DNA from: Alphaproteobacteria bacterium
GTDB taxonomy: Bacteria; Pseudomonadota; Alphaproteobacteria; CACIAM-22H2
Reading direction: 5' to 3'
NCBI GenBank assembly: GCA_041690495.1
Contig: JAWLHE010000001.1
Span: 11,369-75,368, forward strand
Length of the DNA: 64,000 nucleotides
In this document: piece after piece, positions 9,196-49,776 of the stretch
Numbering within the stretch: the first letter of the stretch is position 1
How the letters are laid out: each line of letters opens with the position of its first letter
Notes under the pieces: generated by a model
The model's database searches: none
Told to the model about the DNA's origin: nothing
The model's input: only the letters and a program-made list of their open reading frames with translations
Translations under genes and position numbers: made by a program

Positions 9196-9242
9196 ACTAC
9201 TCTTCTTATGAATCTATAAGGAAGTGAAGGTAGTGGATACCT

Positions 9243-12502: not shown

Positions 12503-12523
12503 GCCGAAGAGCTGCAGTGTCGC

Positions 12524-13096
12524 GTGGCGGCAGCCGAACTTTTACCGAGCTCGACCGTTCTTGTAGCCGTGTCATTGCCTCCATTCGTTTCAGAGCCGGC
12601 GATAAGCCGGCTCCTGCACCGGATCGCGGACGCGCTGCTGCTGGCGGCTGCCATCGCGTTGATATTGCTGGGGACGATGCTGATCGTTTATGCCTGCTGG
12701 GCCGTTGCCCGCCCGCTCTGGGGCGCCGAGACTCTCTCCCACGCCGTGGTCGAAGCGGTCAGCTTCATCATCATCGCCTTCGCCGTGATCGCCTTGTCGA
12801 AGTTTATCGTCGAGGAGGAGATCGAGCGGGAACGCGAGCTGGCTTCCGCCCGCGAGGCGCGGCGGTCGCTCACCAAGATGCTCACTATCGTCATTATCGC
12901 GCTGAACCTCGAGGCGCTCGTGATGGTCTTCGAGGCGAATCGCGGCGATGTCGCCACCGTGATCTATCCGACCGGACTTCTCGCCGTGGCGATTCTGGCG
13001 CTGGTGGGGCTCGGCGCGTATCAGTGGCTCAGCAACGTGGTCGAGCGGGAGAATATCGGCGAGGCGCACGAGGAAAAGCAGCGCGGCAAGAACTGA
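12524..13096 (+). CDS. hypothetical membrane protein
   Basis: 190 aa with several hydrophobic helices and a charged EEEIERERELA linker; no family recognised; inserted between coaE and dnaQ. Confidence 0.4.
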   Translation: MAAAELLPSSTVLVAVSLPPFVSEPAISRLLHRIADALLLAAAIALILLGTMLIVYACWAVARPLWGAETLSHAVVEAVSFIIIAFAVIALSKFIVEEEIERERELASAREARRSLTKMLTIVIIALNLEALVMVFEANRGDVATVIYPTGLLAVAILALVGLGAYQWLSNVVERENIGEAHEEKQRGKN

Positions 13097-13120
13097 ATTC
13101 GTTCGCGCCCATACGGCGCC

Positions 13121-37875: not shown

Positions 37876-38618
37876 GATCGGAACAGCGCGGCCGCGTCGA
37901 CCAGCCTTGCTGCGGGGTGGCGGCGCAGCGCCGCCAGGAACGCATCGACAAACGCCCAGGCGGCCTCATCGTGGGCGAGGTGGTGCGTCAGCAGGCCGGT
38001 CGGCTCGTCGGGATCGGCGTCGCCGATGCGGCGGGCGCGCAGATGAGCGACGGCCAAGCCGAGCGCAACGTCGCTGCCGCCGAAGGCGCGGGTGGTCCAG
38101 TTCATGACGTCGACATGGGTATTGACCCGGACGAGTCCGGGTACCGCGCGTCTGCGGGGGCCGTAGGTCGACAGGCCGATATAGCCGGCGGCGGGGAGGG
38201 CAGCGGCAAGCTCGCCTGCGATACGGTTATGCGGCGGAACCAGCGCGCGGGTCCAGCGGCCGAACAGCGCGTCCATGACGAGCTGGCCGCGTGCGAGCTC
38301 GCCGAGCATAAAGGACAGCGGCCGGTGCGGCCCGAGCTCGGCCTTCGAGGCGCCGACCGGCGCATGGTTCGCATGCATCCAGCCGTGCTGGACCACGGTC
38401 ACCAGAGGTCCTTCGATCCGCTTCCCGAGCTCGGGCTCGGCCCGGGCGGGGATCACCGCGATGGTGATCGGCGCGTCGTGCCTGCGGTGCAGCTCGAGCA
38501 GCCGGTCGAGGGCCGGCGTCGGCGCCGTTGCGTCGTCGTCGCGCCACCAGAAAGTTGCAGTCCGGCCCGATTCGCGCCAGCATTCGAGTTCGCCGGCCAG
38601 ATCCGCCCAGGAGCTCAA
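37872..38618 (-). CDS. polysaccharide deacetylase family protein
   Basis: 248 aa; N-terminal WWRDDD and His-rich motifs typical of this deacetylase family. Confidence 0.65.
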   Translation of the reverse strand: MSSWADLAGELECWRESGRTATFWWRDDDATAPTPALDRLLELHRRHDAPITIAVIPARAEPELGKRIEGPLVTVVQHGWMHANHAPVGASKAELGPHRPLSFMLGELARGQLVMDALFGRWTRALVPPHNRIAGELAAALPAAGYIGLSTYGPRRRAVPGLVRVNTHVDVMNWTTRAFGGSDVALGLAVAHLRARRIGDADPDEPTGLLTHHLAHDEAAWAFVDAFLAALRRHPAARLVDAAALFRS

Positions 38619-39772
38619 GCGCCGGCACCCCGCGTCGTCAGCCAGGTGCGGATCAGCCGGGCGGTTTCCGCCGCGCCGTCGCAGCGCAGCGCCCCGGACT
38701 CGGGCCGCTTCATCGCCGCCGCGCGGTCGATCGCCCCGGCGAGGGTCGCCGGCGTCAGTGTCGACTCCGCGACCATCTCGGCCCAGCCGCGATCGACCAG
38801 TGCGGCGGCGCGCACGGTCTGCTCGGTTTCCTGGCCGGCGGCGAACGGCACCAGTACGGCACGCGCGCGCGCGTTGAGAATGTCCATCACCGTATTATAG
38901 CCAGCCTGCGCCACCGCCACATGGCAGCGCGCGAGCAGGCCGGGAAAATCGGCACGCGCCGGCTCGACGATACAGCCCGCACTGGTGGCTGCGGCCAATT
39001 CCATCCGGATCGCGGCAGGAAGATTGGGGCCGACCAGCAGACGCCAGACGCGGCTGCCTTGCGCGCTTTGCAGCCGTGCGGCGAGCGCTGCGCGCAGCAG
39101 CGGCGCGCCGACGGCGCCACCGCCGACCGAGACGACGATCTCGCCTTCGCCATGGCCGGCCGGCGGCTCTGGTGCGGCGCCATTCGCAACATAGCCGGTA
39201 TAGACCACGCGGTCGGCAATGCGGTCCTCGGGAAAGCTCTTGGCCAAGGGGAGGAACCCCGGATCGCCGTGAACGAGCACGTGGTCGTACCAGGCGCGGA
39301 CCCGCTCGGCCATCTCGTAGAGCTTGCGTTCGTCGCTCTTCTGCGCGAGCACGTCGCGCACCGACGACAGGATCAGCGGCTGCGGCCGTTGCCGCCGCGC
39401 CGCGGCGATCAGCGGAATCAGCTCGAATGCCAGCATTCGCCGCCCGAGCGGGAACAGCTCGGTAATGACCACATCGGGACGCGTGGCAGCGAACCACGAT
39501 AGCAATGCCTCGCTGCGCGCCGCCCGCCAGGCGTCGTCGACCGGCCGACCCTCGGCATCGACCAGTTTCCTGAATGTCTCGTCCGTGGCCCGCATCGGCG
39601 GGAGCTGCACCAGTCGTGCGCCGCCGCAATCGAGGTCGGGGATCGGCGGGCCGCCTGAAACGAGCACGACGTCGAAGCCGTCGCGTGCCAGTGCCGCGGA
39701 GATCACCGCCGCCCGGCGCAGATGCCCGCTGCCGAGCAGATGCTGAACGTGAAAGAGGATGCGCGCGGTCAT
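38615..39772 (-). CDS. glycosyltransferase, GT28/MurG-like C-terminal domain (GT-B fold)
   Basis: ATG at 39770-39772 (MTARILFHVQHLLGSGHLRR…); C-terminal AGYNT motif; paralogous to the 42868..44094 gene. Confidence 0.75.
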   Translation of the reverse strand: MTARILFHVQHLLGSGHLRRAAVISAALARDGFDVVLVSGGPPIPDLDCGGARLVQLPPMRATDETFRKLVDAEGRPVDDAWRAARSEALLSWFAATRPDVVITELFPLGRRMLAFELIPLIAAARRQRPQPLILSSVRDVLAQKSDERKLYEMAERVRAWYDHVLVHGDPGFLPLAKSFPEDRIADRVVYTGYVANGAAPEPPAGHGEGEIVVSVGGGAVGAPLLRAALAARLQSAQGSRVWRLLVGPNLPAAIRMELAAATSAGCIVEPARADFPGLLARCHVAVAQAGYNTVMDILNARARAVLVPFAAGQETEQTVRAAALVDRGWAEMVAESTLTPATLAGAIDRAAAMKRPESGALRCDGAAETARLIRTWLTTRGAGA

Positions 39773-40356
39773 TGCACCTCGAGCGGCAGGTTGAGCTTCT
39801 CGACGCGCGGCACGCCTCCCCTGTCCAGCGCGAACAGGTGCAACGCGTACAGGTCGAGTCCTTCGGGCGGCTCGCCGGTCATATCCCAGTTGACGGCGCG
39901 CGCATAGATGGCGCGGATGACGCCGCGGTGGGTCACCGCCAGGGTCGGCCGAGCCGCGGCGCCGATCTCCCGCAGCAGCGGCGCAACGCGCGCCTGCACG
40001 TCGCGGGGACTCTCGCCGCCTGGCGGACGGAAATCCAGCCCGCGCGCCTCGTTCGTCGCCAGATCGGTGCCGTGCGCGTCGCGCAGCTCGGACAGCGTAC
40101 GGCCCTGGAACTCGCCCCAGTCCATCTCGATCAGGCGCGGATCGGGCGACACCACCAGGCGCAGCATTGCCGCGGTGTCGAGACAGCGCCGCAAGGGCGA
40201 GGACAGCGCGCGGAACCCGGCATAGGCGTCGGGGATGCGGCGCCGCAGGAGATCGGCGCGGCTCTCGTCGAGGAGCGGGACGTCGCTGCGCCCCTGCAGC
40301 CGGCCGGCCTTGTTCCACGCCGTCGGCGCGTGGCGGATCAGCGCCAGCAGGGTCAT
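39769..40356 (-). CDS. histidine phosphatase family protein
   Basis: RHG motif (LALIRHAPTAWN), second His motif (AVTHRGVIRA); ATGA overlaps on both sides. Confidence 0.8.
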   Translation of the reverse strand: MTLLALIRHAPTAWNKAGRLQGRSDVPLLDESRADLLRRRIPDAYAGFRALSSPLRRCLDTAAMLRLVVSPDPRLIEMDWGEFQGRTLSELRDAHGTDLATNEARGLDFRPPGGESPRDVQARVAPLLREIGAAARPTLAVTHRGVIRAIYARAVNWDMTGEPPEGLDLYALHLFALDRGGVPRVEKLNLPLEVQ

Positions 40357-41501
40357 GCGCGCTCCGCGGCCACGGCCTGCAGGATCCGGTCGAGCGCGGC
40401 GCCGGCGGAAACGACGTCATGCTCCGCCGCAACTTTTGCCATCGCCGCGGCACCATAATCGAGACGCCGCTCGGGTGCAGCGAGCAGCGTGTCAACCGCC
40501 GCGGCGAATGCCGCCGCATCGCCCGGCGGCGTCAGCAGACCGGTTCGCTCGTGGACGATCAGCTCGGGCACACCGCCGCTTCTGCCCGCGACCGCCGGCA
40601 ATCCCGCCGCCTGGGCCTCGAGAATGGCCATTCCGTAGGCCTCGTTGATTGCCGGCCAGACCAGGAGATCGGCTGCCGCGAGAAGGCCGGGCAGCCGCCC
40701 GGGATCGACCGCGCCGACGTGGACGACGCGATCGCGGACCGGCGCCAGTGCCGCCTCGACCTCCCGCCGCGCCGGTCCATCGCCGATGGTCAGGAGCCGC
40801 CAGGGTCTCGCGCGCAAGACGTCCAGGGCTGCGCCGAGCACGCGGTACGAGGCCAGCTTGTCGCCAGCACGCATCATCGCGACGGCGACGAGCCAAGGCT
40901 CGTCGGACGGGAGATGGAAGCGCCCGGCGATTTCGCGTCGCTGGTCGGCGCGACCTTGCGCCGCCGTGGCGAATGCAGCCGATTCGAGGAATGGCTTCAG
41001 GTGGCGCAGACGCGCAGCGTCGCGCAGATGCGGGATGACGCCGTCATCGTCGGCGGGATTGAGCGAGATTACGGCGTCGGCGCGCTTGAGCGCCGCAAGC
41101 GTCGCTTCGTGACCGAGCGACCACGGGCCGCCAGCGCGCTTTGCTGCGACCGATGCCTCGACGACGACGTACGGAATGCCGAGCCGGGCGGCGACGCGTG
41201 GCCCGATCCAGTCCGGCGCCTTGTGATAGAGGTGATAGGTCAGCCATGCGCGGGGACGCCGCGCCGGCGTACGGGCGCCGAGCTGCTCGATCAGCCGCGC
41301 CGCGAGACGTCCACCGAGCTCCGCCAGACGGTGCTGGCGTTCCGTATCGCCGCCGCCGTCATAACTGCGCAGCCGTGCGGCGAGCTCTACCTCGTGTCCG
41401 GCGCGGCTCAGCGCCAGCCGAAGGAGCTGTGCCACGCGCCGGTCGCCGGACGGGACCGGATGATCGGGCGGTTTGAGCGGGGCGTAGAAGGCGATGCGCA
41501 T
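40353..41501 (-). CDS. glycosyltransferase family 4 (GT-B, retaining)
   Basis: 382 aa; C-terminal E-x7-E region (…INEAYGMAILEAQAAGLPAVAGRSGGVPELI…). Confidence 0.85.
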   Translation of the reverse strand: MRIAFYAPLKPPDHPVPSGDRRVAQLLRLALSRAGHEVELAARLRSYDGGGDTERQHRLAELGGRLAARLIEQLGARTPARRPRAWLTYHLYHKAPDWIGPRVAARLGIPYVVVEASVAAKRAGGPWSLGHEATLAALKRADAVISLNPADDDGVIPHLRDAARLRHLKPFLESAAFATAAQGRADQRREIAGRFHLPSDEPWLVAVAMMRAGDKLASYRVLGAALDVLRARPWRLLTIGDGPARREVEAALAPVRDRVVHVGAVDPGRLPGLLAAADLLVWPAINEAYGMAILEAQAAGLPAVAGRSGGVPELIVHERTGLLTPPGDAAAFAAAVDTLLAAPERRLDYGAAAMAKVAAEHDVVSAGAALDRILQAVAAERA

Positions 41502-41519
41502 GCGGTCGGCGAAGGTCGG

Positions 41520-42815
41520 TTACCTCGCCGCTTCGCGCGCCGGCGCGCGTCCGTCTGCAATCGTCGAAGACAACAGAAGGGCGGCAATGCGGCCGATGCC
41601 GCGCTCGAGCGGGAAGTCGCGGCGCACCCGCGCCTCGCCGGCGGCCGCGAGGCGCGCGCGCAGGGCGGGGTCGCTGACAAGGCGTGTGATTGCCGCTGCC
41701 ATGGCGGCGGGGTCGCCCGGCGGAACCAGTGTGCCGGTGACGCCGTCCGCGACGAGCTCGGGTATCGCCGAGACGGCGGTCGCCGCCACCGGGCAGCGCT
41801 GGCTCAACGCCTCGAGCAGGACGTTGGGCAGGCCGTCGCGATCGCCGTCGCCGCTGATCCTGCTTGCCAGAACGAACAGGTCGGCCTCGCGATAGGCCGC
41901 GCGCACCACGTCCTCGGTCTGGGCGCCGCGCCACGCGATGCGGTCTGCGAGGCCGCGCCGCTCCGCCTCGCGCCGGAGATCGGGGAGCAGCGGTCCGCCG
42001 CCGATATGGATCATCCGCCAGTGCAGGTCGCGCGGCAGCAGGGCCAGAGCCGCGAGCAGGTCGCCGTAGCCCTTTTTCGGCACCGCGCGCCCGACCGACA
42101 GCAGGATGACCGGATCGGCCGGCGCCGTTCCGTCGCGGGGCGGGCGCGATGCGTCGTGCGGTGGGAAACGCGCGGCATCGATGCCGTGGTAGACGAGCTC
42201 GACTTTCGCCGGCGCGGCAGCCAATTCGGCGAGGTGCTCGCGTCCCGCACGCGTGCAGGTCACCGCCCATGCCGCGTCGTCGAGCTTCTCGCGTTTCTCC
42301 CAGCCGGGCGTGGTCCAGATGTCCTTGGCGTGCGCCGACACGCTCCACGTCAATCCGGCGAGAAGCGCGGCATAGCGCGCGACCGATGCAGGCGTGTGCA
42401 GAAAATGCGCGTAATAGTGCACGACATCCGGGCTGCGCTCCGCCGCCAGCACCAGCGCCTGGCCGAAGCGCCGGATGCGATTGGGCGTCGGATCGCGAGC
42501 GAGGTCCTTGAGCCAGGCGGCGCGTGCGCGCGCATAGCCGGGCAGACGCCGCACCGCACGCCAGGCGCGCCAGACCCGCGCCGGCTCGCGCCACAGATAT
42601 TCGGGCAGATACGTCAGCGCGGCGCCGACTGACCGGTTGAGCGGGTGCACGCGCTTGTCGGTAGGATGGCGCAGCGAATAGATGCGCAGGTGCACGCCGC
42701 TGCGCTCGAGCGCGCGCAACTCCTGGGCGATGAAGGTTTCCGACAGGCGCGGCCAGCCCTTGACGACCACGCCGATTGCGGCGACGGATGGCTGGCTCGT
42801 CGGCTCGTGAGGCAT
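41520..42815 (-). CDS. glycosyltransferase family 4
   Basis: ATG at 42813-42815 (MPHEPTS…); about 431 aa; GT4 C-terminal domain (…GLPNVLLEALSQRCPVAATAVSAIPELV…). Confidence 0.85.
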   Translation of the reverse strand: MPHEPTSQPSVAAIGVVVKGWPRLSETFIAQELRALERSGVHLRIYSLRHPTDKRVHPLNRSVGAALTYLPEYLWREPARVWRAWRAVRRLPGYARARAAWLKDLARDPTPNRIRRFGQALVLAAERSPDVVHYYAHFLHTPASVARYAALLAGLTWSVSAHAKDIWTTPGWEKREKLDDAAWAVTCTRAGREHLAELAAAPAKVELVYHGIDAARFPPHDASRPPRDGTAPADPVILLSVGRAVPKKGYGDLLAALALLPRDLHWRMIHIGGGPLLPDLRREAERRGLADRIAWRGAQTEDVVRAAYREADLFVLASRISGDGDRDGLPNVLLEALSQRCPVAATAVSAIPELVADGVTGTLVPPGDPAAMAAAITRLVSDPALRARLAAAGEARVRRDFPLERGIGRIAALLLSSTIADGRAPAREAAR

Positions 42816-42867
42816 GAAGCAATCTAGCGTCGAAGCGGCGCCCGTCGGAAGCAGGATGCGCAGACCT

Positions 42868-44094
42868 TCAGCCGTGATCGGCGAGGGCGAGACGGCGTGC
42901 AGCCGGCTGGACGACGCGGTCGGGCAGCCAGCGGTTGACCAGGCGCCCGACATTCTCGAAACCGTCGAGCAGACCGGGCACCACCATTTCCGACGGGCGG
43001 GGCTGGCCGGGCAGGCGGCGCAGCGCGTCCGCCATCAACCGCGCGTCGCGCTTGCCGTCGTCCTGCAGCATGCGGACGAGGCCGAGATCCTGGGCACGGC
43101 TGGCGCGGATGTACTGTTCGAGCCGGGGTGCCGTGCGCGGCACGATGATCGCGCGCTTGTTGAACGAAAGGATCTCGCAGAAGGTGTTGTAGCCGCCCAT
43201 CGCCACCACGCCGGCGGCGCGGTCCATCAGCTCCTCGAGATGCGTGTCGAAGGTGATCGCCTCGACGTGCCGCAGACGCCGCGCGCGCTCGATGAAATCG
43301 GTCTGCAGCTCGGGCTGCATGAACGGTCCAAGGACCAGCACCGCACGGTGCGGCAGGTTGCGGTCGTATTCGTAGGCGCGCAGCACCCAGTCGACCAGCG
43401 TCTCGCCGTCGCCGCCGCCGCCGGTCGTCACCAGGACATAGGGCTCCTCGGGATTCTCGTGCCGGCGCGTGCGCTGCGTGGCGACCGGCACCGTGCGCGG
43501 CAGATAGCCGGTGTAGCTGATCTTGCGCTTGACCGAGCGAGGGACCGCGATGCCCGCAAGCGGATCGCAGATCTGCGGCAGCCCGTAGATCCAGATGTCG
43601 TCGTATAGATCGCGCAGCGCCGGCAGCACGTTCTTACGTTTCCATTCCGGCTCCAGCAGCACCGGGTCGTCCATTACGTCGCGCAGGCCCAGCACCAGCG
43701 GCACGCCCATCGACTTGAGCATCACCAGCGTGTCGTGGACCTCGCCGCGGAAGCCGAGGGGTTCCTTGTCGACCAGGAACAGGTCGGGGCCGAACGCCTC
43801 CGCCGTATGGCGGATGATCGAGGAGCGGATGCCGATCGTCTGCTGGATGTCGATGTGCAGGTTGAGCGAGGTGTATTCGCCGTTGCGCAGCTTGATGACG
43901 CCGGGCACGCGCACGAAATCGACGCGGGTCTTGAAGTCGAAGCTGCCGATGATCGGCGAGCCCGATAGGATCAGGACCGAGAGATCCTTGTTGCGTTCGA
44001 CCAGTGCATGCGCGAGGGCGCGGCAGCGGCGCAGATGGCCGAGGCCGAGCGTATCGTGGCTGTAGATGAGAATCCGGGAGCCGCCGCTTTTCAT
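42868..44094 (-). CDS. glycosyltransferase, GT28/MurG-like C-terminal domain (paralog)
   Basis: Start MKSGGSRILIYSHDTLGLGHLRR… (paralogous N-terminus to the 38615 gene); MGGYNT motif; about 408 aa. Confidence 0.75.
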   Translation of the reverse strand: MKSGGSRILIYSHDTLGLGHLRRCRALAHALVERNKDLSVLILSGSPIIGSFDFKTRVDFVRVPGVIKLRNGEYTSLNLHIDIQQTIGIRSSIIRHTAEAFGPDLFLVDKEPLGFRGEVHDTLVMLKSMGVPLVLGLRDVMDDPVLLEPEWKRKNVLPALRDLYDDIWIYGLPQICDPLAGIAVPRSVKRKISYTGYLPRTVPVATQRTRRHENPEEPYVLVTTGGGGDGETLVDWVLRAYEYDRNLPHRAVLVLGPFMQPELQTDFIERARRLRHVEAITFDTHLEELMDRAAGVVAMGGYNTFCEILSFNKRAIIVPRTAPRLEQYIRASRAQDLGLVRMLQDDGKRDARLMADALRRLPGQPRPSEMVVPGLLDGFENVGRLVNRWLPDRVVQPAARRLALADHG

Positions 44095-44290
44095 GCGCTG
44101 TGCTATCTCGCTCAAGGGCTGGCTCTCCGTCGCTCCCCAGCGGAGGACTATGGCATAAGGCCGCGGGGGCGAAAAAGTCACCTTTTTTATTGACTGGGGC
44201 TACAAAGTGCGCGGATTTTGGATCGATTTTACAATTCAGCGCAAGGGCTTAATGATTCGGAGCATTATTGGAGGGCCTTACCGCGGGCTC
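44095..44290. promoter_or_regulatory. AT-rich divergent promoter island between the glycosylation operon and the PCuAC-like/ABC gene set
   Basis: Local AT-rich stretch (…gaaaaagtcaccttttttaTTGACTggggctacaaagtgcgcggattttggatcgattttacaattcag…) in a 65% GC background. Confidence 0.45.
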
Positions 44291-44764
44291 CGCGGCCGGC
44301 TCCCGTATGCGGCGGGCGGCCGGTCCGGGATGCCGCTGGGGCCGCTCTGCGGGATCGCGCTTGCCGTGCTGATCGGCGGGCCCGGCGAAGCTCACGACCT
44401 GCGCCACGGCGACCTGCATGTCGGTCACGCCTGGACACGCCCGGCCGCGGCCGGCGGTGCCGCGGAAGTCTATTTCCCGATCGTCAACCGTGGGGCGCGC
44501 GCGGATCGGCTGACCGAGGTGCGCACGTCGATCGCGGCGGAAGCCGGCTTGGCGGAAACGCGAGACGGAACTGCGGAACGCCTCGATGCGATTGCGCTGC
44601 CCGCCGGGCGGCCGGTGGCGCTGCGTCCGGGCCGGTTCCATGTCCGTCTTGAGGGGCTGGCGCGCAGGCTGGAGGCCGGCGATCAATTCATCGTGACCCT
44701 GATTTTCGCGGCGGCAAGCCCGGCCGATGTCACCGTGATCGTCGAATCGGCGGCCGGCCACTGA
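44207..44764 (+). CDS. PCu(A)C/DUF461-like periplasmic protein lacking the Met/His copper ligands
   Basis: Pattern H.W.RP…Y..I.N.G…L……HVRLEGL…GD.F.VTL.F collinear with copper chaperone PCuAC, but H(M)-Mx/MxM ligand positions are V/L/R/E; start may be an internal Met (MIRS… or MPLGPL… signal). Confidence 0.45.
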   Translation: MRGFWIDFTIQRKGLMIRSIIGGPYRGLRGRLPYAAGGRSGMPLGPLCGIALAVLIGGPGEAHDLRHGDLHVGHAWTRPAAAGGAAEVYFPIVNRGARADRLTEVRTSIAAEAGLAETRDGTAERLDAIALPAGRPVALRPGRFHVRLEGLARRLEAGDQFIVTLIFAAASPADVTVIVESAAGH

Positions 44765-44886
44765 GGGCCACTTGGCCGGCGGTGCCGCCGGGCCCTAGTG
44801 ATATGGTGGCGCCGATTGGGTAGATTTATGCGCTGCCTTCACGACCCCATGGCGCACGGATAGCCGGGGCGATCGCGACGACCCTG

Positions 44887-47523
44887 ATGGAATCGAACCT
44901 CTATCGCTTCGTTCTGAAATACGCGCCGCGCGAAACCGCATGGGTCTGCACGCTTACCGTGCTGTCGATGCCGTTCTACTACCTTTCGCTCGAGGTGCCG
45001 AAGACGATCGTCAACAAGGCGCTGCTGCAGAAGGACATTACGTTTCCGACGGCCATTCTTGGTGTGGAGGTAGGCCGCGTCGCCTACCTGTTCCTGCTCT
45101 GCGCCGCATTCTTCTTCCTGTTCGTCACCAATACCGGCCTCAAGCAATACATCAATACGCTGAAGGGCAGGCTGGGCGAGCGGTTGCTGCGGCGATTGCG
45201 CTATGACCTGGTCTCGCGCGTCCTTCGTTTTCCGCTGCCCCATTTCCGCAAGGTTTCGGCCGGCGAGATCATCCCGATGGTGACATCGGAAGTCGAGCCG
45301 CTCGGCGGCTTTATGGGCGACGCGATTGCGCAGCCGCTGATCCAGGGCGGCACGCTTCTGGTGATCATCACCTTTCTGTTCATGCAGAATCCCTGGATCG
45401 GCCTGGCCGCGATCTCGCTCTATCCGCTGCAGGCCTACCTGATCCCCAAGCTGCAACGTCGCGTGAACCAGCTCGGCAAGGAGCGCGTACGTGCGGTGCG
45501 CAAGCTGTCGGAGCGCATCGGCGAGGCCATCCAGGGCGTCCAGGAAGTCCACGCTCACGGCACCACGACCTGGGAGCGTGCCGACTTCTCCGACCGGCTC
45601 GGGCTGATCTTCAAGATCAGGTTCGAGATCTACCAGCGCAAATCGTTCGTCAAGTTTCTGAACAATTTTCTCAACCAGATGGTGCCGCTGCTGTTTTATT
45701 CGCTCGGCGGCTATCTGGTGATCCGGGGCGACCTGTCCGTCGGCGCGCTCACAGCGGCACTGGCGGCGCACAAGGACATGTCGGCGCCATGGAAAGAGCT
45801 GCTCGACTATTACCAGCAGAGTCAGGATTCGAAGATCAAGTACGAGCAGGTCACCGAGCAGTTCAAGCCGGAGAACATGTTCGACGAGACGCTGGAGCAG
45901 CCGATCGATGAGCCGCCGGGCCGGCTTGAAGGCGAGATCGAGGCGACCAATCTCGCTCTCTACGAGGACGCCCAGACCAGGCTGCTTGAAAGCACCAGCT
46001 TCAGAATCGCGCCTGGAGAGAAGGTGGCGCTCGTCGGCCCTTCAGGCGGCGGCAAGGAGGCGGCTGCCATGCTGCTCGCGCGTCTCTATCAGCCGAGCGC
46101 CGGCCGCATTGCTGTCGGCGAGCGGGATCTGCGGACGATTCCGAGTGCGGTGCTCGGCGCGCGCATCGGCTATGTCGGACCGACCGCCTATCTCTTTTCC
46201 GCCAGCGTGCGGGACAACCTGAGCTATGGCCTGCGCCAGCGGCTGGTGAAGGCCCGCGAGGATGCCCAGTTGCGCCAGAAGCAGCGCTGGCTCGCCGAGG
46301 CGGCGCGCGCGGGCAACCTCGCGCTCGACACCCAGGCCGAATGGATCGACTGGCGCGGCGCGGACCTTTCTGGCGATCAGGGTCCGACCGAGGCGATGAT
46401 CGAAGCGCTGTCGCTCGTCGGCCTCTCGGAGGATCTCTACCACTTCGGTCTGCGCGGGACGATCGATCCGAAGAAGCGCAGCGACATCGCGGATTGCATC
46501 GTAAAGGCGCGCGCGGCGCTGCAGGAGCGGATCAGGGATCCCGAGCTGGCGCCGCTGGTCGAGGTGTTCGATCCGGGGCGCTACAACAACAATGCGACGA
46601 TGGCGGAGAACCTGCTGTTCGGAACGCCGGTCAGCGCCGCCTTCGACATCGATCGCCTCTCCGAGAACGCGTATGTGCTTGGCGTGCTCGACAAGGTCGG
46701 CCTCACCGATGATCTGGTCGCCATCGGCCGCGAGGTCGCGACCACCATGATCGAGATCTTCGCCGACCTGCCGCCCGGGCACGAGTTCTTCGAGCAGTTC
46801 AGCTTCATCTCGTCGGACGAGCTTCCGGAATTCCAGGCGCTGCTCGGCCGTGTCGACGGCAAGGGCATGACCCCGGCGGACCGCGCGCGCCTGCTCACGC
46901 TGCCTTTCAAGCTGATAGAGGCGCGCCACCGTCTGGGTCTGATCGACGACGCCCTCAAGGCGCGAATCCTCGAAGCGCGGCACGTCTTCCGCGAGGATCT
47001 GCCCGAAACGACACGCTCGGGTATCGAGTTCTTCGATCCGGCGGCCTACAATGCCGCAACGTCGCTGCAGGACAATATCCTGTTCGGGAAGCTCGCCTAT
47101 GGGCAAGCACGGGCCGCCCAACGGGTCGGCAAGCTCATCGTCGAGATCCTGGACGAGCTCCATCTCCGCCCAGCGGTGCTCGAAGTCGGGCTCGAATACC
47201 AGGTCGGCGTGGGCGGCGCGCGCCTGAACCAGGGCCAGCGCCAGAAGCTGGCGATCGCGCGATCTCTGCTCAAGCGCCCGGATATCATGATTCTCAACGA
47301 GGCCACGACGATCTTTGATTCGACGACGCAGGCGCACATCATGGATGGCATTTTCAAGGCGTGCGAAGGCCGCACCGTGATCTGGGCGCTGCATACGCCG
47401 GCGATGGCCAAGCACTTCGATCGTGTCCTCGTTTTTGCGGACAACCGCCTTGCAGAGTCCGGTGATTTCGGCGAGCTCGGGCGCCCGGGCACGCTGTTCA
47501 CCGAGCTGCTCGCGGCGGCATGA
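44887..47523 (+). CDS. ABC exporter (type I TMD + NBD) with degenerate ATPase motifs and triplicated helical-subdomain segment
   Basis: 878 aa; 6-TM exporter domain; Walker A GPSGGGKE, signature LNQGQRQK, Walker B IMILNEAT, H-loop IWALH; three tandem copies of the Q-loop/ENIxFG segment (46169-46231, 46560-46623, 47026-47088). Confidence 0.85.
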   Translation: MESNLYRFVLKYAPRETAWVCTLTVLSMPFYYLSLEVPKTIVNKALLQKDITFPTAILGVEVGRVAYLFLLCAAFFFLFVTNTGLKQYINTLKGRLGERLLRRLRYDLVSRVLRFPLPHFRKVSAGEIIPMVTSEVEPLGGFMGDAIAQPLIQGGTLLVIITFLFMQNPWIGLAAISLYPLQAYLIPKLQRRVNQLGKERVRAVRKLSERIGEAIQGVQEVHAHGTTTWERADFSDRLGLIFKIRFEIYQRKSFVKFLNNFLNQMVPLLFYSLGGYLVIRGDLSVGALTAALAAHKDMSAPWKELLDYYQQSQDSKIKYEQVTEQFKPENMFDETLEQPIDEPPGRLEGEIEATNLALYEDAQTRLLESTSFRIAPGEKVALVGPSGGGKEAAAMLLARLYQPSAGRIAVGERDLRTIPSAVLGARIGYVGPTAYLFSASVRDNLSYGLRQRLVKAREDAQLRQKQRWLAEAARAGNLALDTQAEWIDWRGADLSGDQGPTEAMIEALSLVGLSEDLYHFGLRGTIDPKKRSDIADCIVKARAALQERIRDPELAPLVEVFDPGRYNNNATMAENLLFGTPVSAAFDIDRLSENAYVLGVLDKVGLTDDLVAIGREVATTMIEIFADLPPGHEFFEQFSFISSDELPEFQALLGRVDGKGMTPADRARLLTLPFKLIEARHRLGLIDDALKARILEARHVFREDLPETTRSGIEFFDPAAYNAATSLQDNILFGKLAYGQARAAQRVGKLIVEILDELHLRPAVLEVGLEYQVGVGGARLNQGQRQKLAIARSLLKRPDIMILNEATTIFDSTTQAHIMDGIFKACEGRTVIWALHTPAMAKHFDRVLVFADNRLAESGDFGELGRPGTLFTELLAAA

Positions 47524-47544
47524 GAAAGGCCGGAGGAAACACCG

Positions 47545-48003
47545 ATGTCGATCAAGGAAGAAGTCGAGATTCTCCGCAACATTCCGCTTTTCGCAAAGCT
47601 CGAGCCGGCGAAACTGAAACTGCTGGCTTTCACCAGCCAAAGACTGACTTTCGAGGCCGGCCAGCCGCTGTTCCAGCAGGGCGATCCCGGCGATGCCGCC
47701 TACATCGTCCTGGACGGAGAGGCGGAGGTCATGATTCACACGGCGCAGGGACCGGTTCGGGTCGCGCGGGTCGGGCGCCACGCGATCATCGGCGAGGTGG
47801 CCATACTGTGCGAGGTGCCGCGCACCGCGACGGTGATCGCCAGCTCGCAGCTCACTACATTGCGCATCGACAAGGATTTGTTCTTCCGGCTGGTCAACGA
47901 GTTCCCGCAGATGGCGGTCGAGATCATGCGCGAGCTCGCGCACCGGCTCGAGAAGACCAACGAGCAGCTCCGCGTTGCCGTGACGCGCGCCGGAAACGCC
48001 TGA
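47545..48003 (+). CDS. stand-alone cyclic nucleotide-binding domain protein
   Basis: 152 aa; cNMP-binding beta-roll (…FEAGQPLFQQGDPGDAAYIVLDGEAEV…GEVAIL…RTATV…); no DNA-binding domain; SD ggagga precedes the ATG. Confidence 0.85.
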   Translation: MSIKEEVEILRNIPLFAKLEPAKLKLLAFTSQRLTFEAGQPLFQQGDPGDAAYIVLDGEAEVMIHTAQGPVRVARVGRHAIIGEVAILCEVPRTATVIASSQLTTLRIDKDLFFRLVNEFPQMAVEIMRELAHRLEKTNEQLRVAVTRAGNA

Positions 48004-48004
48004 C

Positions 48005-48526
48005 ATGGCGCCCTCGGATCGCGGGCGCAAGGGCAGCCGTCTGGACAGCTTCATCCGCCGCCTCGAGGCGCAGCGCGCCTGTCTCGACTGGGCGACGGCC
48101 GCGGTCGCCGATGTTCCGGGTGCAACCCTCGAGCTCGGACTCGGCAACGGCCGCACCTACGATCACCTGCGAACGAGGCTGTCGGCCGGTCGCGAGATCT
48201 TCGCTTTCGACCGCCAGGTCGCGGCACATCCCGACTGCATTCCCGACGCCGATCATCTGCTTGTCGGCGACTTCCGTGACACCGTACCGGCTTTCGCCGC
48301 GCGACATGGGGCGACGGCGGCTCTCGTCCATGCAGACATCGGCTCGGGCGACGCGGCCGCCACCGCGGCGCTGGCGCGCTGGCTTGGACCGGCGCTGATA
48401 CCGTTGCTTGCCGCGCATGCGATCGTTCTGTGCGACCAGGCGCTCGATGCGCAGGGACTGCGCCTTCAGCCGCTTCCGCCCGGCGTGCCGGCGGACCGCT
48501 ATTTCATCTATCGCCGTGTGCTCTGA
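48005..48526 (+). CDS. small methyltransferase-like protein (putative class I SAM-binding fold)
   Basis: 173 aa; motif-I-like LELGLGNGRT and acidic motif (LLVGDF); start codon 1 nt after the cNMP-protein stop (TGAcATG). Confidence 0.5.
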   Translation: MAPSDRGRKGSRLDSFIRRLEAQRACLDWATAAVADVPGATLELGLGNGRTYDHLRTRLSAGREIFAFDRQVAAHPDCIPDADHLLVGDFRDTVPAFAARHGATAALVHADIGSGDAAATAALARWLGPALIPLLAAHAIVLCDQALDAQGLRLQPLPPGVPADRYFIYRRVL

Positions 48527-48600
48527 CCGGGGATGCTGAAGGCGGCGGCCGGCCGCGAGCAAGACGCGCTGCAGCGCAGGCGCGGCGCCGCCTGCGTCTG

Positions 48601-49488
48601 TTACGGCTTCAGATCGAGCAGCACGGGAACGTGGTCCGACGGCGTCGGCCAGTCGCGCGCCTCCTTGAGAATGTGCACGCCCATGACGCCGCCGGCGAGC
48701 GCCGGCGTCACCCAGGCGTGATCGAGCCGCCGGCCGCGGTCGGACCGGCGCCAGTCCTGATTGCGATAGCTCCACCAAGTGTAAATCCGCTGCGGCTCGG
48801 GGAACAGCTCGCGTGTCGCATCGACCCAGTGATGCGCGTCCTGGAACGCCGCCAGCAGCTCGACCTCGACGGGCGTGTGGCTCACCACCGTCAGCAGCTG
48901 CTTGTGCGACCACACGTCGTTCTCGCGCGGCGCCACATTGAGGTCGCCGACCAGGATGCGCTTGCGGCCGTTGGGCTGCCTGGCCCAGTATGCGCCAAGC
49001 TCGCGCAGGAACTGGAGCTTGTGCGCGAATTTCGGGTTTACCGCGGGATCGGGAACGTCGCCGCCGGCGGGCACATAGACATTGTGCAGCTCGATTCCGC
49101 CGGGGAGCTCCACCTGGCAATGGCGCGAATCGTCCTTCTCGCACCAGCGCTCGCGGCCGCTGCGCGCCAGGCTGTGCCGTGACAGGATCGCGACGCCGTT
49201 ATAGCCCTTCATGCCGTAGAAGCACTGGTGCGGGTACCCCGCCTTGGCCAGGGCATCCGCCGGGAAATGCTGGTTCTCGGTCTTGGTTTCCTGCAGGCAG
49301 ATCACGTCGGGCTGCGCTGCCTTGATCAGCTTCTTGATCAGCGGCAGCCGCAGGCGCACCGAGTTGATATTCCAGGTTGCGACGCGCAGGCCCGATGCGC
49401 CGGGCGCCCGAGGAATTTTCCTGGCGAGGTAAGGCGTGGGTATGGCGGCTTCTTTCTTCGCCGGTCGCGCGGCGGCACGGTTCGACAT
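48601..49488 (-). CDS. xthA: exodeoxyribonuclease III
   Basis: EEP-fold nuclease motifs (LRVATWNINSV, DVICLQETK, VGDLN, …SDHVPV); the N-terminal 30 aa extension may not be translated. Confidence 0.9.
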   Translation of the reverse strand: MSNRAAARPAKKEAAIPTPYLARKIPRAPGASGLRVATWNINSVRLRLPLIKKLIKAAQPDVICLQETKTENQHFPADALAKAGYPHQCFYGMKGYNGVAILSRHSLARSGRERWCEKDDSRHCQVELPGGIELHNVYVPAGGDVPDPAVNPKFAHKLQFLRELGAYWARQPNGRKRILVGDLNVAPRENDVWSHKQLLTVVSHTPVEVELLAAFQDAHHWVDATRELFPEPQRIYTWWSYRNQDWRRSDRGRRLDHAWVTPALAGGVMGVHILKEARDWPTPSDHVPVLLDLKP

Positions 49489-49593
49489 CCGGATGGAAAT
49501 TTCTCAAAGCATAAAACGGCAGCGCGTTGTTTTGCCGTGCCGCCGTCGGCACGGTCAAGCCCGCCGCGAGAAATCCGGGTGCGCAAATGCAAA

Positions 49594-49640
49594 GCGCCCG
49601 GTCGGGGGGAAGACCGGGCGCTCGGAAGCTCCTCTCGGAG
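49594..49640 (-). terminator. hairpin terminator downstream of the hydrolase/GATase/LolA-like operon
   Basis: Perfect 11-bp inverted repeat AGCGCCCGGTC-GGGGGGAA-GACCGGGCGCT; on the minus strand it is followed by TTTGCATTTG. Confidence 0.55.
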
Positions 49641-49776
49641 CCCGGCGGACGTCAGGGGAGCCGTCCACCGAACGGTCGACCGGAGCCGACCGCCTCTTGT
49701 CCTAAGAAATGGTAGCGAGCCGCGTCCGTTCAAGACCCTTCGCAGCGGCGCTCAGGATCCAAAAAGCGCAAGTCGC

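What the first reader, a model, noticed from the sequence alone, without database searches (positions are those of the whole stretch)
47545..48526. Stand-alone cNMP-binding domain protein translationally coupled to a small methyltransferase-like protein, directly downstream of the unusual ABC exporter
The 152-aa protein is only a cyclic-nucleotide-binding beta-roll with no HTH or other effector domain. It starts 22 bp after the ABC exporter stop behind a GGAGGA Shine-Dalgarno sequence. The following 173-aa ORF starts 1 nt after its stop (TGAcATG) and carries a motif-I-like LELGLGNGRT. In NHLP-type bacteriocin exporters a cNMP-binding domain is fused to the ABC protein, whereas here it is a separate polypeptide. 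That suggests second-messenger gating (cAMP/cGMP) of the degenerate exporter, and possibly of the adjacent glycosylation operon. The four plus-strand genes at 44207-48526 form a compact divergent unit.
Basis: partly seen in the sequence, partly recalled or inferred. Interest (0 to 1): 0.6.

Follow-up and report, generated by a model that had tools for sequence, protein, structure and literature searches.

The report
cNMP-sensor subunit of unusual ABC exporter
A small protein that is only a cyclic-nucleotide sensor domain almost always sits next to, or is fused to, an unusual ABC exporter in a sugar-chain gene cluster of Alphaproteobacteria, including rhizobia, which suggests cAMP/cGMP directly controls export; the small methyltransferase gene after it is an optional extra.

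Summary
The 152-aa ORF (47545-48003) is a complete cyclic-nucleotide-binding (CNB) domain with no effector domain. The 173-aa ORF (48005-48526) is a full-length Methyltransf_17 (MT17) protein.

- In an ABC-anchored sample, 71 of 72 orthologous exporters have the CNB gene directly downstream.
- The pair stays together through several cluster rearrangements, and also where the glycosyltransferase genes are absent.
- In about 21% of family representatives the CNB domain is fused to the exporter's C-terminus; nine of nine tested were confirmed by Pfam.
- The phosphate-binding cassette is intact; its Arg is invariant in 122 orthologues.

MT17 is an operonic but dispensable member, present in 50 of 65 loci. 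It is retained little better than the unrelated neighbour xth. In Sinorhizobium/Ensifer an FkbM methyltransferase occupies its slot.

The conserved unit is five divergent glycosyltransferase/phosphatase genes plus ABC-CNB(-MT17), not the "four plus-strand genes"; PCuAC is a local insertion. The ligand, the exported substrate and the methyl acceptor remain unknown. I found no literature on this module. I rate it a new variant of second-messenger-gated glycan export.

The parts
47545..48003 (+). Stand-alone cyclic-nucleotide-binding (CNB) protein, 152 aa. It has a beta-roll, a phosphate-binding cassette (residues 82-97, IGEVAILCEVPRTATV) and a long C-terminal helix (121-151). I infer it is the regulatory subunit of the upstream ABC exporter.
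   Evidence: Pfam PF00027 at 72.5 bits, with no HTH. The cassette is conserved in 122 orthologues. The AF2 model has pLDDT 86.5, and Foldseek gives TM 0.85-0.87 to cAMP-bound MtbCRP/GlxR sensor domains. The gene lies directly downstream of the ABC gene in 71 of 72 loci and is fused to it in about 21% of family representatives.
47532..47537 (+). GGAGGA Shine-Dalgarno sequence, 7 nt upstream of the CNB start codon, inside the 21-nt ABC-CNB spacer.
   Evidence: Sequence read directly. The ABC stop to CNB start spacing has a median of 29 nt in 127 orthologous pairs.
48005..48526 (+). Methyltransf_17 (PF12692) small class I SAM-methyltransferase-fold protein, 173 aa. Its start lies 1 nt after the CNB stop (TGAcATG). 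It is an optional, co-transcribed cluster member. I propose a glycan-tailoring (O-)methyltransferase role, which is inferred.
   Evidence: - Family and fold: Pfam 178.8 bits; PDB 3IHT E 1e-42. AF2 pLDDT 90.9, TM 0.87 to 3IHT, and only generic class I methyltransferases beyond that.
- Conserved motifs: invariant E43-x-G45-x-G47-x-G49, D69, H109-x-D111.
- Context: adjacent to CNB in 50 of 65 ABC loci, with a spacing median of at most 14 nt. It is embedded among GT genes in L080. An FkbM methyltransferase replaces it in L177/L178.
44887..47523 (+). ABC exporter (TMD-NBD, 878 aa), partner of the CNB protein. Its ATPase motifs are degenerate and it has an insert of about 250 aa in the NBD, formed by triplication of the Q-loop/helical-subdomain segment.
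   Evidence: - Domains: Pfam ABC_membrane plus a split ABC_tran.
- ATPase motifs: conserved across 47 orthologues as Walker A K-[D/E], Walker B Asn and signature L-[STP]-A-x-Q.
- Insert: hhalign of repeat segments gives 97% and 80% probability.
- Family size: the insert family has 756 representatives at E <= 1e-10.
- Naming: no NCBIfam equivalog cut-off is reached.
42868..44181 (-). GT28-like (MurG/MGT-type) glycosyltransferase, first gene of the divergent five-gene operon.
   Evidence: Pfam Glyco_tran_28_C. It is divergent from ABC in 42 of 51 ABC-anchored loci, with a median spacing of 218 nt.
41520..42953 (-). GT4 glycosyltransferase (GT4b). The true start is probably near 42815, because orthologue alignments begin at about residue 47-60.
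   Evidence: Pfam Glycos_transf_1. It is conserved in the cluster in most loci, including rhizobia.
40353..41501 (-). GT4 glycosyltransferase (GT4a). It is absent from the reduced rhizobial cluster.
   Evidence: Pfam Glyco_trans_1_4 and Glycos_transf_1; synteny.
39769..40356 (-). Histidine-phosphatase-family protein (CobC/PGAM-like). It overlaps the GT4a stop by 4 nt.
   Evidence: NCBIfam ribazole_cobC at 106 bits, below its cut-off of 162.9. Pfam His_Phos_1 is recorded for the L171 orthologue. Synteny.
38615..39772 (-). Second GT28-C/MurG-like glycosyltransferase (GTx, 385 aa). Its start overlaps the histidine-phosphatase stop by 4 nt. It is the last gene of the operon.
   Evidence: Start mapped. 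Weak murG match. Orthologues match Glyco_tran_28_C. Synteny.
44207..44764 (+). PCu(A)C copper-chaperone gene. It is a lineage-specific insertion in the divergent promoter region and not part of the conserved module.
   Evidence: Pfam PF04314. It lies between GT28 and ABC in only 1 of 107 loci.

Best explanation
**Proposed mechanism**

The 152-aa protein is the detached regulatory subunit of the upstream ABC exporter. It is in effect a CRP sensor domain that keeps the long dimerisation helix but has no DNA-binding domain. The steps are:
1. It binds a cyclic mononucleotide (cAMP and/or cGMP) in an intact phosphate-binding cassette.
2. As a dimer docked at the C-terminal face of the exporter's two nucleotide-binding domains, it controls whether those domains can close and drive transport.
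3. The exporter's ATPase motifs are conserved in a degenerate form, so it plausibly depends on this input.
4. The cargo is the still-unidentified oligosaccharide or glycoconjugate made by the divergent operon (GT28-like, GT4, GT4, histidine phosphatase, GT28-like).
5. The co-translated Methyltransf_17 protein is an optional tailoring enzyme. Most likely it methylates that glycan, for example as a terminal cap.

**Shown:** domain identities, cassette conservation, near-obligate ABC-CNB pairing, natural fusions, linkage to the GT cluster, and operonic packing.

**Inferred:** ligand identity, physical docking, the direction of regulation, the cargo, and the methyl acceptor.
For: **1. The CNB domain is complete and probably binds ligand**
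- Pfam E 2.7e-20.
- The best PDB sequence matches are PKA-RI and PKG CNB domains.
- The model superposes on cAMP-bound MtbCRP/GlxR, including the C-helix, at rmsd 1.7 A.
- In 122 unique orthologues (37-79% identity): Arg93 122/122, Ala95 121, Thr/Ser96 120, Gly83 117, Glu84 114.

**2. Pairing with the ABC gene**
- 71 of 72 ABC-anchored loci have CNB directly downstream.
- Median spacer 29 nt.
- There is no terminator-like site on the + strand between the ABC stop (47523) and the MT17 stop (48526), and no Rfam element.

**3. The pair moves as a unit**
- It is relocated to the far end of the GT operon in L055 and L171.
- It is colinear with the GT genes in L080, L155, L157 and in Rhizobium/Sinorhizobium.
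- It is present without any GT genes in L091, L092, L106 and L174.

**4. Rosetta-stone fusions**
- ABC_membrane-ABC_tran-cNMP_binding (with or without GGDEF) occurs as one polypeptide in L055, L080, L144 and L155.
- It occurs in 23 of 111 representatives with a complete C-terminus. All 9 tested were Pfam-confirmed.
- More distant ABC-B exporters also carry a C-terminal CNB domain.

**5. Signal source**
- Class III cyclases flank the fused genes in L172 and L173, and the CNB gene in L165.

**6. Precedent**

**7. MT17**
- SAM-binding motifs are invariant and the fold is class I methyltransferase.
- It overlaps GT genes on both sides in L080.
- It is kept next to the GT cluster when ABC-CNB is missing (L015, L018).
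- An FkbM methyltransferase occupies the same slot in Sinorhizobium/Ensifer.
Against: - No binding, interaction or transport experiment exists. A complex could not be modelled with these tools.
- HetC's CNB domain bound ppGpp, not cAMP, so an intact fold does not prove a cNMP ligand.
- The nucleotide cannot be assigned. Thr94 (RTA, as in PKG) is present in 77% of orthologues, but the second PKG selectivity position aligns to Ala74 rather than Arg. That reading uses the alignment plus my own knowledge of PKG.
- No cyclase is detectable in the 64-kb window, and cyclases are adjacent in only a few loci.
- L073 has CNB-MT17 with no ABC. L152 has ABC with no CNB.
- MT17's link is weak.
  - It is absent in 15 of 65 loci.
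  - It is found alone next to QueG, enoyl-CoA hydratase, SLT and other genes.
  - The unrelated convergent xth is retained almost as often (28 against 32 of 45).
- The exporter may be catalytically impaired, so 'export' itself is an assumption.
Confidence: 0.6

Rival explanations
1. The CNB protein is the exporter's regulatory subunit, but its ligand is not a cyclic mononucleotide. It could be ppGpp or GTP as reported for HetC, or another small molecule. The module would then report a stringent-response or metabolic signal rather than cAMP/cGMP.
For: HetC's CNB domain bound ppGpp and GTP and was not stabilised by cAMP (PMC10986499). No cyclase is present in the window and cyclases are only sporadically adjacent elsewhere.
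Against: - The cassette here is canonical and strongly conserved, including the phosphate-clamping Arg (122/122) and Gly-Glu.
- The best sequence matches are true cNMP binders, PKA-R and PKG, at E 1e-24 to 1e-26.
- Cyclases lie directly beside three related genes.
Confidence: 0.15
2. Methyltransf_17 has nothing to do with the exporter or the glycan. It would be a housekeeping small methyltransferase, acting on a small molecule, RNA or protein, that sits at this position through inherited gene order and is co-transcribed by accident of packing.
For: - MT17 is missing from 15 of 65 ABC-CNB loci.
- In the MT17-anchored sample, 12 of 67 loci have no cluster gene nearby, and the neighbours there are heterogeneous (QueG, ECH, SLT).
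- The unrelated DNA-repair gene xth is retained next to the cluster almost as often.
- Fold search gives only generic class I methyltransferase similarity.
Against: - It is co-directional with CNB at very short or overlapping spacing in 108 loci.
- In L080 it is inserted between GT28 and GT4b with 4-nt overlaps.
- It is retained beside the GT operon when ABC-CNB is deleted or moved (L015, L018, L055, L171).
- It is tandemly duplicated in L070, L072 and L088.
- An unrelated FkbM methyltransferase sits in the same slot in Sinorhizobium/Ensifer, with a further class I methyltransferase beside the ABC gene.
Confidence: 0.35
3. The 152-aa protein is a truncated or degenerate Crp/Fnr transcription factor, as many database records name it. 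It would regulate transcription of the cluster, possibly through a partner, rather than acting on the transporter protein.
For: - Public annotations call homologues 'CRP/FNR family transcriptional regulator'.
- The fold is closest to CRP sensor domains, including the dimerisation helix.
Against: - There is no HTH domain, and CRP and FtrB NCBIfam scores are far below their cut-offs (34 against 266).
- The length is fixed at 150-152 aa across more than 100 clusters, so this is not a decaying remnant.
- The domain is fused to the exporter's C-terminus in about 21% of representatives, which makes no sense for a DNA-binding regulator.
Confidence: 0.04
4. The ABC protein is not a transporter of the GT product. 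It would be a membrane-anchored signalling or scaffold ATP-binding protein, and the CNB domain (plus the GGDEF-like domain in fused forms) would make it a second-messenger receptor that controls something else, for example GT activity or chemotaxis-related outputs.
For: - ATPase motifs are degenerate across the family: Walker B Asp to Asn in 40 of 47, His retained at the H-loop position in only 16 of 47, and signature LSGGQ lost.
- In GT-less variants the pair is followed by response-regulator or CheZ-like genes.
Against: - A full type-IV-exporter transmembrane domain is conserved.
- The catalytic Glu is retained in 38 of 47, and the Walker A Lys in 43 of 47.
- The protein is tightly linked to GT genes in most loci.
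- The only CNB-less variant carries a carrier-protein plus MBOAT pair, which typically acylates exported glycopolymers.
Confidence: 0.15

Closest known systems
HetC of Nostoc PCC 7120 (peptidase-containing ABC exporter with a CNB domain; PMC10986499)
   Same: [quoted passage not shown] The control is post-translational and nucleotide-dependent.
   Different: - HetC's CNB domain is N-terminal, fused, and followed by a C39 peptidase.
- HetC's cargo is presumed to be a peptide, and its ATPase is canonical and essential.
- HetC's ligand found in vitro was ppGpp.
- Here the CNB domain is a separate polypeptide or a C-terminal fusion.
- Here the NBD is degenerate with a triplicated helical segment, and the context is glycosyltransferases.
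NHLM/NHLP bacteriocin export systems with TIGR03896 'bacteriocin-type transport-associated protein'
   Same: A separate CNB protein is encoded beside ABC exporters.
   Different: - TIGR03896 proteins are about 317 aa with two CNB domains. The window protein scores 47.7 bits against a cut-off of 161.
- The partner exporters there are peptidase-type peptide exporters. No GT cluster is involved.
c-di-GMP-gated polysaccharide secretion (PelD degenerate GGDEF, Alg44 and BcsA PilZ)
   Same: A second-messenger receptor domain acts directly on the export or synthesis machinery of a glycan instead of on transcription. The fused variants here even add a GGDEF-like domain that keeps RxxD and has a degenerate active site, as in PelD.
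   Different: The messenger is inferred to be a cyclic mononucleotide sensed by a CNB domain. The machine is an ABC exporter, not a synthase-dependent system. This comparison rests on my own knowledge of those systems.
Regulatory C-terminal domains of ABC NBDs (MalK, MetN C2, ModC; Wzt carbohydrate-binding domain with the WbdD methyl cap)
   Same: A ligand-binding module at the C-terminus of the NBD controls NBD closure or cargo recognition. A methyltransferase-made terminal cap as an export signal is a possible analogue for MT17/FkbM.
   Different: Those domains have different folds and ligands, and most of those transporters are importers. No evidence here shows cap recognition. This is an analogy from general knowledge only.
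PDB 3IHT (Ruegeria pomeroyi 'SAM methyl transferase', structural genomics) / Pfam Methyltransf_17
   Same: Same family as the 173-aa ORF (48% identity, TM 0.87).
   Different: No substrate or function has been published for the family; searches for PF12692 and Methyltransf_17 returned 0 papers.
Sinorhizobium meliloti msbA2 operon (SMb21188-21191)
   Same: An ABC exporter co-transcribed with glycosyltransferases for an unknown glycan on pSymB (PMC3687685).
   Different: It is not the same gene. The 1021 msbA2 region gives only a 34% hit restricted to the NBD. The true Sinorhizobium orthologue is a separate locus (GT-GT-GT, ABC, CNB, FkbM).

Membership tests
Cyclic-nucleotide-binding domain (Pfam PF00027) | Profile match above the gathering score. 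| tested here: met
   72.5 bits against 27.5, residues 35-119.
Cyclic-nucleotide-binding domain (Pfam PF00027) | Phosphate-binding cassette with Gly-Glu and Arg-[T/S/A]-Ala. | tested here: met
   IGEVAILCEVPRTATV at 82-97. Across 122 orthologues: R93 122/122, G83 117, E84 114 (D in 8), A95 121.
Cyclic-nucleotide-binding domain (Pfam PF00027) | Eight-stranded beta-roll with N-terminal helices and a hinge/C-helix. | tested here: met
   AF2 model pLDDT 86.5. TM 0.85-0.87 and rmsd 1.7 A to cAMP-bound MtbCRP/GlxR sensor domains.
Cyclic-nucleotide-binding domain (Pfam PF00027) | Actual binding of cAMP or cGMP. | not testable with these tools
   Needs ITC, DRaCALA or nanoDSF. The HetC precedent shows that the fold alone does not guarantee it.
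CRP/FNR transcription factors | C-terminal winged helix-turn-helix DNA-binding domain. | tested here: not met
   The protein ends at residue 152, after the C-helix. There is no HTH Pfam match. CRP scores 34.3 bits against 266, and FtrB 35 against 211.
TIGR03896 bacteriocin-type transport-associated CNB protein | About 317 aa with two CNB domains, scoring above the curated cut-off. | tested here: not met
   47.7 bits against 161.05, with a single domain.
Methyltransf_17 (Pfam PF12692) | Full-length profile match above the gathering score. | tested here: met
   178.8 bits against 27, profile positions 2-160 of 160. 3IHT E 1e-42.
Class I SAM-dependent methyltransferases | Rossmann-like seven-strand fold with motif I (E/D-x-G-x-G-x-G) and an acidic residue at the end of strand 2. 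| tested here: met
   AF2 pLDDT 90.9. Foldseek matches to YtqB/MnmM, FtsJ, SafC and COMT at probability 1.0, TM 0.5-0.64. E43, G45, G47, G49 and D69 are invariant in 15 sequences.
Class I SAM-dependent methyltransferases | SAM binding and methyl transfer to a defined substrate. | not testable with these tools
   No ligand or substrate information is available. No literature exists on the family.
ABC exporters (TMD-NBD half-transporters; MsbA/ABCB-like) | ABC_membrane plus ABC_tran domains. | tested here: met
   80.3 and 68.7 bits.
ABC exporters (TMD-NBD half-transporters; MsbA/ABCB-like) | Canonical Walker A GxxGxGK[ST], Walker B hhhhD-E, LSGGQ signature and H-loop His. | tested here: not met
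   The window has GPSGGGKE, IMILNE, LNQGQ and a variable H-loop. The same pattern is seen in 47 orthologues.
MsbA (lipid A exporter) equivalog | NCBIfam TIGR02203 score above cut-off. | tested here: not met
   209.9 bits against 602. The S. meliloti msbA2 region is not orthologous.

The most novel reading that the evidence does not exclude
Alphaproteobacteria, including the model rhizobia Sinorhizobium and Rhizobium, possess an unrecognised, widespread envelope-glycan pathway. Its ABC exporter has a conserved non-canonical ATP site (an acidic residue moved from Walker B to Walker A) and a triplicated helical subdomain. On this reading the exporter is switched on or off directly by cAMP/cGMP through a detachable CNB subunit, with an added c-di-GMP input in GGDEF-fused variants. 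This would be a non-transcriptional output for the many orphan nucleotide cyclases of these bacteria, and a cyclic-mononucleotide counterpart of c-di-GMP-gated polysaccharide secretion.
Probability: 0.35. Interest if true: 0.75.

Novelty: new variant of a known kind. Interest (0 to 1): 0.58.

Why it matters
**Open question.** Rhizobia and related Alphaproteobacteria encode dozens of class III adenylate/guanylate cyclases, but very few known cNMP receptors, almost all of them CRP-type transcription factors. That statement is from my own knowledge of the field. A CNB protein that is a near-obligate, sometimes fused, partner of an ABC exporter would be a direct post-translational effector of cNMP signalling. 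It would tie that signalling to an uncharacterised surface or periplasmic glycan.

**Testability.** The module occurs on replicons of genetically tractable species: R. leguminosarum plasmids, and the S. medicae and E. adhaerens chromids, with the ABC orthologue also on S. meliloti pSymB. Standard mutants and binding assays can therefore test the idea at once.

**Annotation.** The results correct a widespread mis-annotation of these 150-aa proteins as 'Crp/Fnr family transcriptional regulator'. They also give the first contextual clue for the Methyltransf_17 family, which has a crystal structure but no known function.

**Mechanism.** The exporter's conserved degenerate ATP site and triplicated helical subdomain are of mechanistic interest for ABC transporter research.

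Tried and rejected
1. **msbA2 lead (from memory).** I suspected the rhizobial orthologue was S. meliloti msbA2. This is rejected. The 1021 msbA2 region (L179) shows only a 34% hit restricted to the NBD. The real orthologue is a different locus.
2. **Cyclase neighbourhood as general support.** tblastn with three class III cyclases found none in the window and only sporadic adjacency. I keep it as weak support only.
3. **RNA and terminator elements.** Rfam found nothing in 38000-50000. The promoter and terminator scan was no better than shuffles.
4. **Alternative conserved partner for stand-alone MT17.** Neighbours are heterogeneous. An apparent 708-aa MT17 'fusion' in L066 has no second domain and is probably high-GC ORF over-extension. 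The apparent 1036-aa CNB 'fusion' in L020 was likewise a frame artefact.
5. **Source organism.** The exact look-up for P0001 found no gene record, and the cluster look-up gave no names.
6. **Structure of the ABC protein.** No multimer modelling or PAE output is available, so the CNB-NBD interface could not be examined.
7. **Literature.** Searches for PF12692/Methyltransf_17, for CNB plus ABC plus glycosyltransferase, for pSymB plus CNB, and for stand-alone CNB proteins gave nothing specific.
8. **Substrate of MT17 from fold.** Foldseek beyond 3IHT gives only generic small or COMT-like methyltransferases.
9. **NCBIfam naming of the cluster.** Neither the GT/phosphatase genes nor the ABC, CNB and MT17 proteins reach a curated cut-off; only the neighbouring xth does.
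Full report
**1. Observation**

- The ABC ORF ends at 47523. A GGAGGA lies at 47532-47537, and the 152-aa ORF starts at 47545.
- Its TGA (48001-48003) is followed by one base and then the ATG of the 173-aa ORF (48005-48526). That ORF contains LELGLGNGRT at residues 42-51.
- Pfam assigns the first protein to cNMP_binding (E 2.7e-20) and finds no other domain.
- Pfam assigns the second to Methyltransf_17 / PF12692 over the whole profile (E 1e-52).
- The second protein is 48% identical to the structural-genomics entry 3IHT.
- Both have thousands of homologue clusters of conserved length, so these are real genes and not chance ORFs of a 67% GC sequence.

**2. What surrounds it**

The upstream gene (44887-47523) is a TMD-NBD ABC exporter whose ABC_tran match is split by about 250 residues.

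On the other strand, five tightly packed genes diverge from it:
- a GT28-like glycosyltransferase (42868-44181);
- two GT4 enzymes (41520-42953 and 40353-41501);
- a histidine-phosphatase-family protein (39769-40356);
- a second GT28-C-like enzyme (38615-39772).

Two of the junctions are 4-nt overlaps. None of these proteins, nor the ABC, CNB or MT17 proteins, reaches a curated NCBIfam cut-off. Downstream lies a convergent xth.

**3. Synteny anchored on the methyltransferase**

A scan of one genome per species with an MT17 alignment returned 80 loci, mostly Alphaproteobacteria, with 52-73% identity to the window protein. tblastn with the window's proteins shows the typical layout: GTx-HisPhos-GT4a-GT4b-GT28 on one strand, then ABC-CNB-MT17 diverging from it.

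Of the 67 loci with enough upstream sequence:
- 45 have the CNB gene immediately upstream of MT17;
- 48 have both ABC and CNB;
- 5 have GT-cluster genes but no ABC-CNB;
- 12 have no cluster gene at all.

The rearrangements are informative:
- In L055 and L171, ABC-CNB has moved to the far end of the GT operon while MT17 stays divergent from GT28.
- In L080 everything is colinear, and MT17 sits between GT28 and GT4b with overlapping stop and start codons.
- L015 and L018 keep GT cluster, PCuAC and MT17 but lack ABC-CNB.
- L073 keeps CNB-MT17 without ABC. None of these gaps contains Ns.

**4. Synteny anchored on the exporter**

To remove the bias of anchoring on MT17, I scanned metagenome contigs with an ABC alignment, which gave 80 loci.
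- Of 72 ABC orthologues with at least 520 nt of downstream sequence, 71 have the CNB gene directly downstream on the same strand.
- Of 65 with more room, 50 also have MT17.
- GT28 is divergent upstream in 42 of 51.
- The median ABC-stop to CNB-start distance is 29 nt.

The single exception, L152, has a phosphopantetheine carrier protein and an MBOAT acyltransferase in place of CNB. Such a pair typically modifies exported glycopolymers.

CNB-anchored spot checks show that ABC-CNB also exists with no GT genes or MT17 nearby: L174, with the same layout in L091, L092 and L106. The two-gene pair is therefore the minimal module.

**5. Fusions**

In L055, L080, L144 and L155 the ABC and CNB reading frames are continuous. 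Pfam confirms ABC_membrane, split ABC_tran, cNMP_binding and GGDEF in polypeptides of about 1173 aa.

A full-library search with only the NBD insert (residues 450-775) finds 756 representatives at E <= 1e-10. Among 111 top representatives with a complete C-terminus:
- 88 end like the window protein;
- 19 carry an extra 230-320 residues;
- 4 carry more than 320 extra residues.

All nine long ones tested are ABC-CNB or ABC-CNB-GGDEF. So about one fifth of the family's diversity has the CNB domain in cis at the C-terminus of the NBD. This is classical Rosetta-stone evidence that the window's separate CNB protein works on the exporter, most likely at the C-terminal face of the NBD.

In the GGDEF-like domains the active-site motif is degenerate (GTLRL, SGYSF, DSFTF). 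An RxxD motif is retained, as in c-di-GMP receptor domains. More distant ABC-B exporters with a C-terminal CNB domain also exist.

**6. Is the CNB domain a plausible cNMP binder?**

- Its best solved relatives by sequence are PKA-RI and PKG CNB domains.
- The AF2 model (pLDDT 86.5) superposes on the cAMP-bound sensor domain plus C-helix of MtbCRP and GlxR (TM 0.85-0.87, rmsd 1.7 A). In effect it is a CRP without the DNA-binding domain, keeping the helix that mediates CRP dimerisation.
- Across 122 unique orthologues the cassette is conserved: Arg93 122/122, Ala95 121, Thr/Ser96 120, Gly83 117, Glu84 114.
- Thr94 gives the PKG-like 'RTA', but the second PKG selectivity position aligns to Ala74. 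That reading uses the alignment plus my own knowledge, so cAMP versus cGMP cannot be decided.
- Class III cyclases flank the related fused genes in L172 and L173, and the CNB gene in L165. No cyclase is detectable in the window.
- One caution: the CNB domain of HetC, the only studied CNB-bearing ABC exporter, bound ppGpp rather than cAMP, although it was essential in vivo (PMC10986499).

**7. The exporter**

Across 47 orthologues the ATPase motifs are degenerate in a conserved way:
- Walker A Lys is followed by Asp/Glu (38 of 47) instead of Ser/Thr.
- Walker B Asp is Asn in 40 of 47.
- The signature is L-[STP]-A-x-Q.
- The H-loop His is kept in only 16 of 47.
- The catalytic Glu is mostly retained.

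The NBD insert is a triplication of the Q-loop/helical-subdomain segment. hhalign gives 97% probability (E 5e-11) for segments 2 against 3, and 80% for 1 against 2. A homodimer with such sites would plausibly need an accessory input, which fits a regulatory subunit. This last step is inference.

**8. The methyltransferase**

MT17 has the class I fold (pLDDT 90.9). Motif I, the strand-2 acidic residue and an H-A-D-x-G-S-G-D segment are invariant. Beyond 3IHT, only generic small or COMT-like methyltransferases match, and no paper mentions the family.

*For a role in the cluster:*
- Spacing to CNB is very short or overlapping in 108 loci (median at most 14 nt).
- It is embedded among GT genes in L080.
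- It is retained beside the GT operon when ABC-CNB is absent.
- It is tandemly duplicated in some loci.
- In Sinorhizobium medicae and Ensifer adhaerens an unrelated FkbM-family methyltransferase sits in exactly this slot, and S. medicae has a further class I methyltransferase next to the ABC gene.

*Against a role in the cluster:*
- It is absent from 15 of 65 ABC-CNB loci.
- It occurs alone beside unrelated genes.
- Convergent xth, which has no conceivable link, is retained almost as often (28 against 32 of 45).

I therefore treat MT17 as an optional tailoring enzyme. I give roughly one chance in three that the adjacency is only inherited gene order.

**9. Cultured hosts**

The ABC orthologue is on large plasmids or chromids of Rhizobium (144 records) and Sinorhizobium (80, including S. 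meliloti pSymB). It is also found in Ensifer, Azospirillum, Ruegeria and Sulfitobacter.
- In R. leguminosarum bv. viciae 248 the order is GT28-like, GT4, GT28-C-like, ABC (904 aa), CNB (155 aa).
- In S. medicae the same set is followed by FkbM, and the CNB protein is annotated as a 'Crp/Fnr family transcriptional regulator'.
- I checked, and rejected, the idea that this is the known msbA2 operon.

**10. Verdict**

Its description of the unit needs three corrections:
- PCuAC is a local insertion (1 of 107 loci).
- The methyltransferase is facultative.
- Split and fused CNB forms coexist within this very family.

The module is undescribed in the searchable literature. I rate it a new variant of a known kind: CNB-regulated ABC exporters, and second-messenger-gated glycan export.

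Noticed in passing
window 44887-47523 (ABC protein residues about 425-800): The NBD insert is an internal triplication of the Q-loop/helical-subdomain segment (SVRDNLSYG at 440, TMAENLLFG at 571, TSLQDNILFG at 725). hhalign gives 97% and 80% probability between the segment profiles. The insert defines a family of 756 representatives at E <= 1e-10.
   Followed up: partly
window 46036-46062 (Walker A) and 47284-47310 (Walker B); 47 orthologues from L011-L090: There is a conserved apparent charge swap in the ATP site. Walker A Lys is followed by Asp/Glu (38 of 47) instead of Ser/Thr, while Walker B Asp is Asn (40 of 47). The signature LSGGQ is lost and the H-loop is variable. This may be a non-canonical Mg-ATP site rather than a dead one.
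   Followed up: partly
window 44207-44764: A PCu(A)C copper-chaperone gene is inserted in the divergent GT28/ABC promoter region. It lies between GT28 and ABC in only 1 of 107 related loci. In L015 and L018 it directly precedes MT17 where ABC-CNB is missing.
   Followed up: partly
L055:889-4410(-), L080:7467-10991(+), L171:9001-11277(+); P0380, P0393: Fused ABC-CNB proteins carry a further GGDEF-like domain with a degenerate active site (GTLRL, SGYSF, DSFTF) but a retained RxxD motif. This suggests an additional c-di-GMP input, as in PelD-type receptors.
   Followed up: partly
L152:7736-7984(+) and 8069-9544(+): The only ABC orthologue without a downstream CNB gene is followed instead by a phosphopantetheine carrier protein and an MBOAT acyltransferase (a DltC/DltB- or AlgI-like pair). 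This hints that the exported product is a glycopolymer that can be acylated outside the cytoplasm.
   Followed up: partly
L178 (S. medicae CP140910.1) 12443-13192(+) and 7976-8653(-); L177 (E. adhaerens) 9604-10365(+): In Sinorhizobium/Ensifer an FkbM-family methyltransferase occupies the position that MT17 has in the window. In S. medicae a 225-aa class I SAM methyltransferase also lies divergent from the ABC gene. The CNB protein there is annotated as a 'Crp/Fnr family transcriptional regulator', which is a misnomer.
   Followed up: partly
L174:7513-7920(+); L092:5198-5998(+); L106:11235-12086(+); L175:754-1515(+): In variants without the GT cluster, ABC-CNB is followed by a stand-alone response-regulator receiver domain or a CheZ-like phosphatase gene. 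The reason is unexplained.
   Followed up: no
L049, L050, L057 (MT17 at about 10001-10500; cyclase-like hits 0.7-3.2 kb downstream): Three of the stand-alone MT17 loci have a class III cyclase-like gene within about 0.7-3.2 kb. The sample is too small to judge whether this is chance.
   Followed up: no
L038:8862-9371; L070:10518-11000; L072:10536-11009; L088:7908-8384 and 8443-8919: Some clusters carry two MT17 paralogues. They are in tandem in L070, L072 and L088, and flank the CNB gene in L038.
   Followed up: no
window 48601-49488(-) and downstream to about 53956: Convergent xth, followed by abhydrolase, class I glutamine amidotransferase, LolA, DUF4112 and other genes, keeps the same order in relatives with 76-83% CNB identity (L001-L010). 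This shows strong background synteny in this lineage, which is why adjacency alone is weak evidence for MT17.
   Followed up: yes
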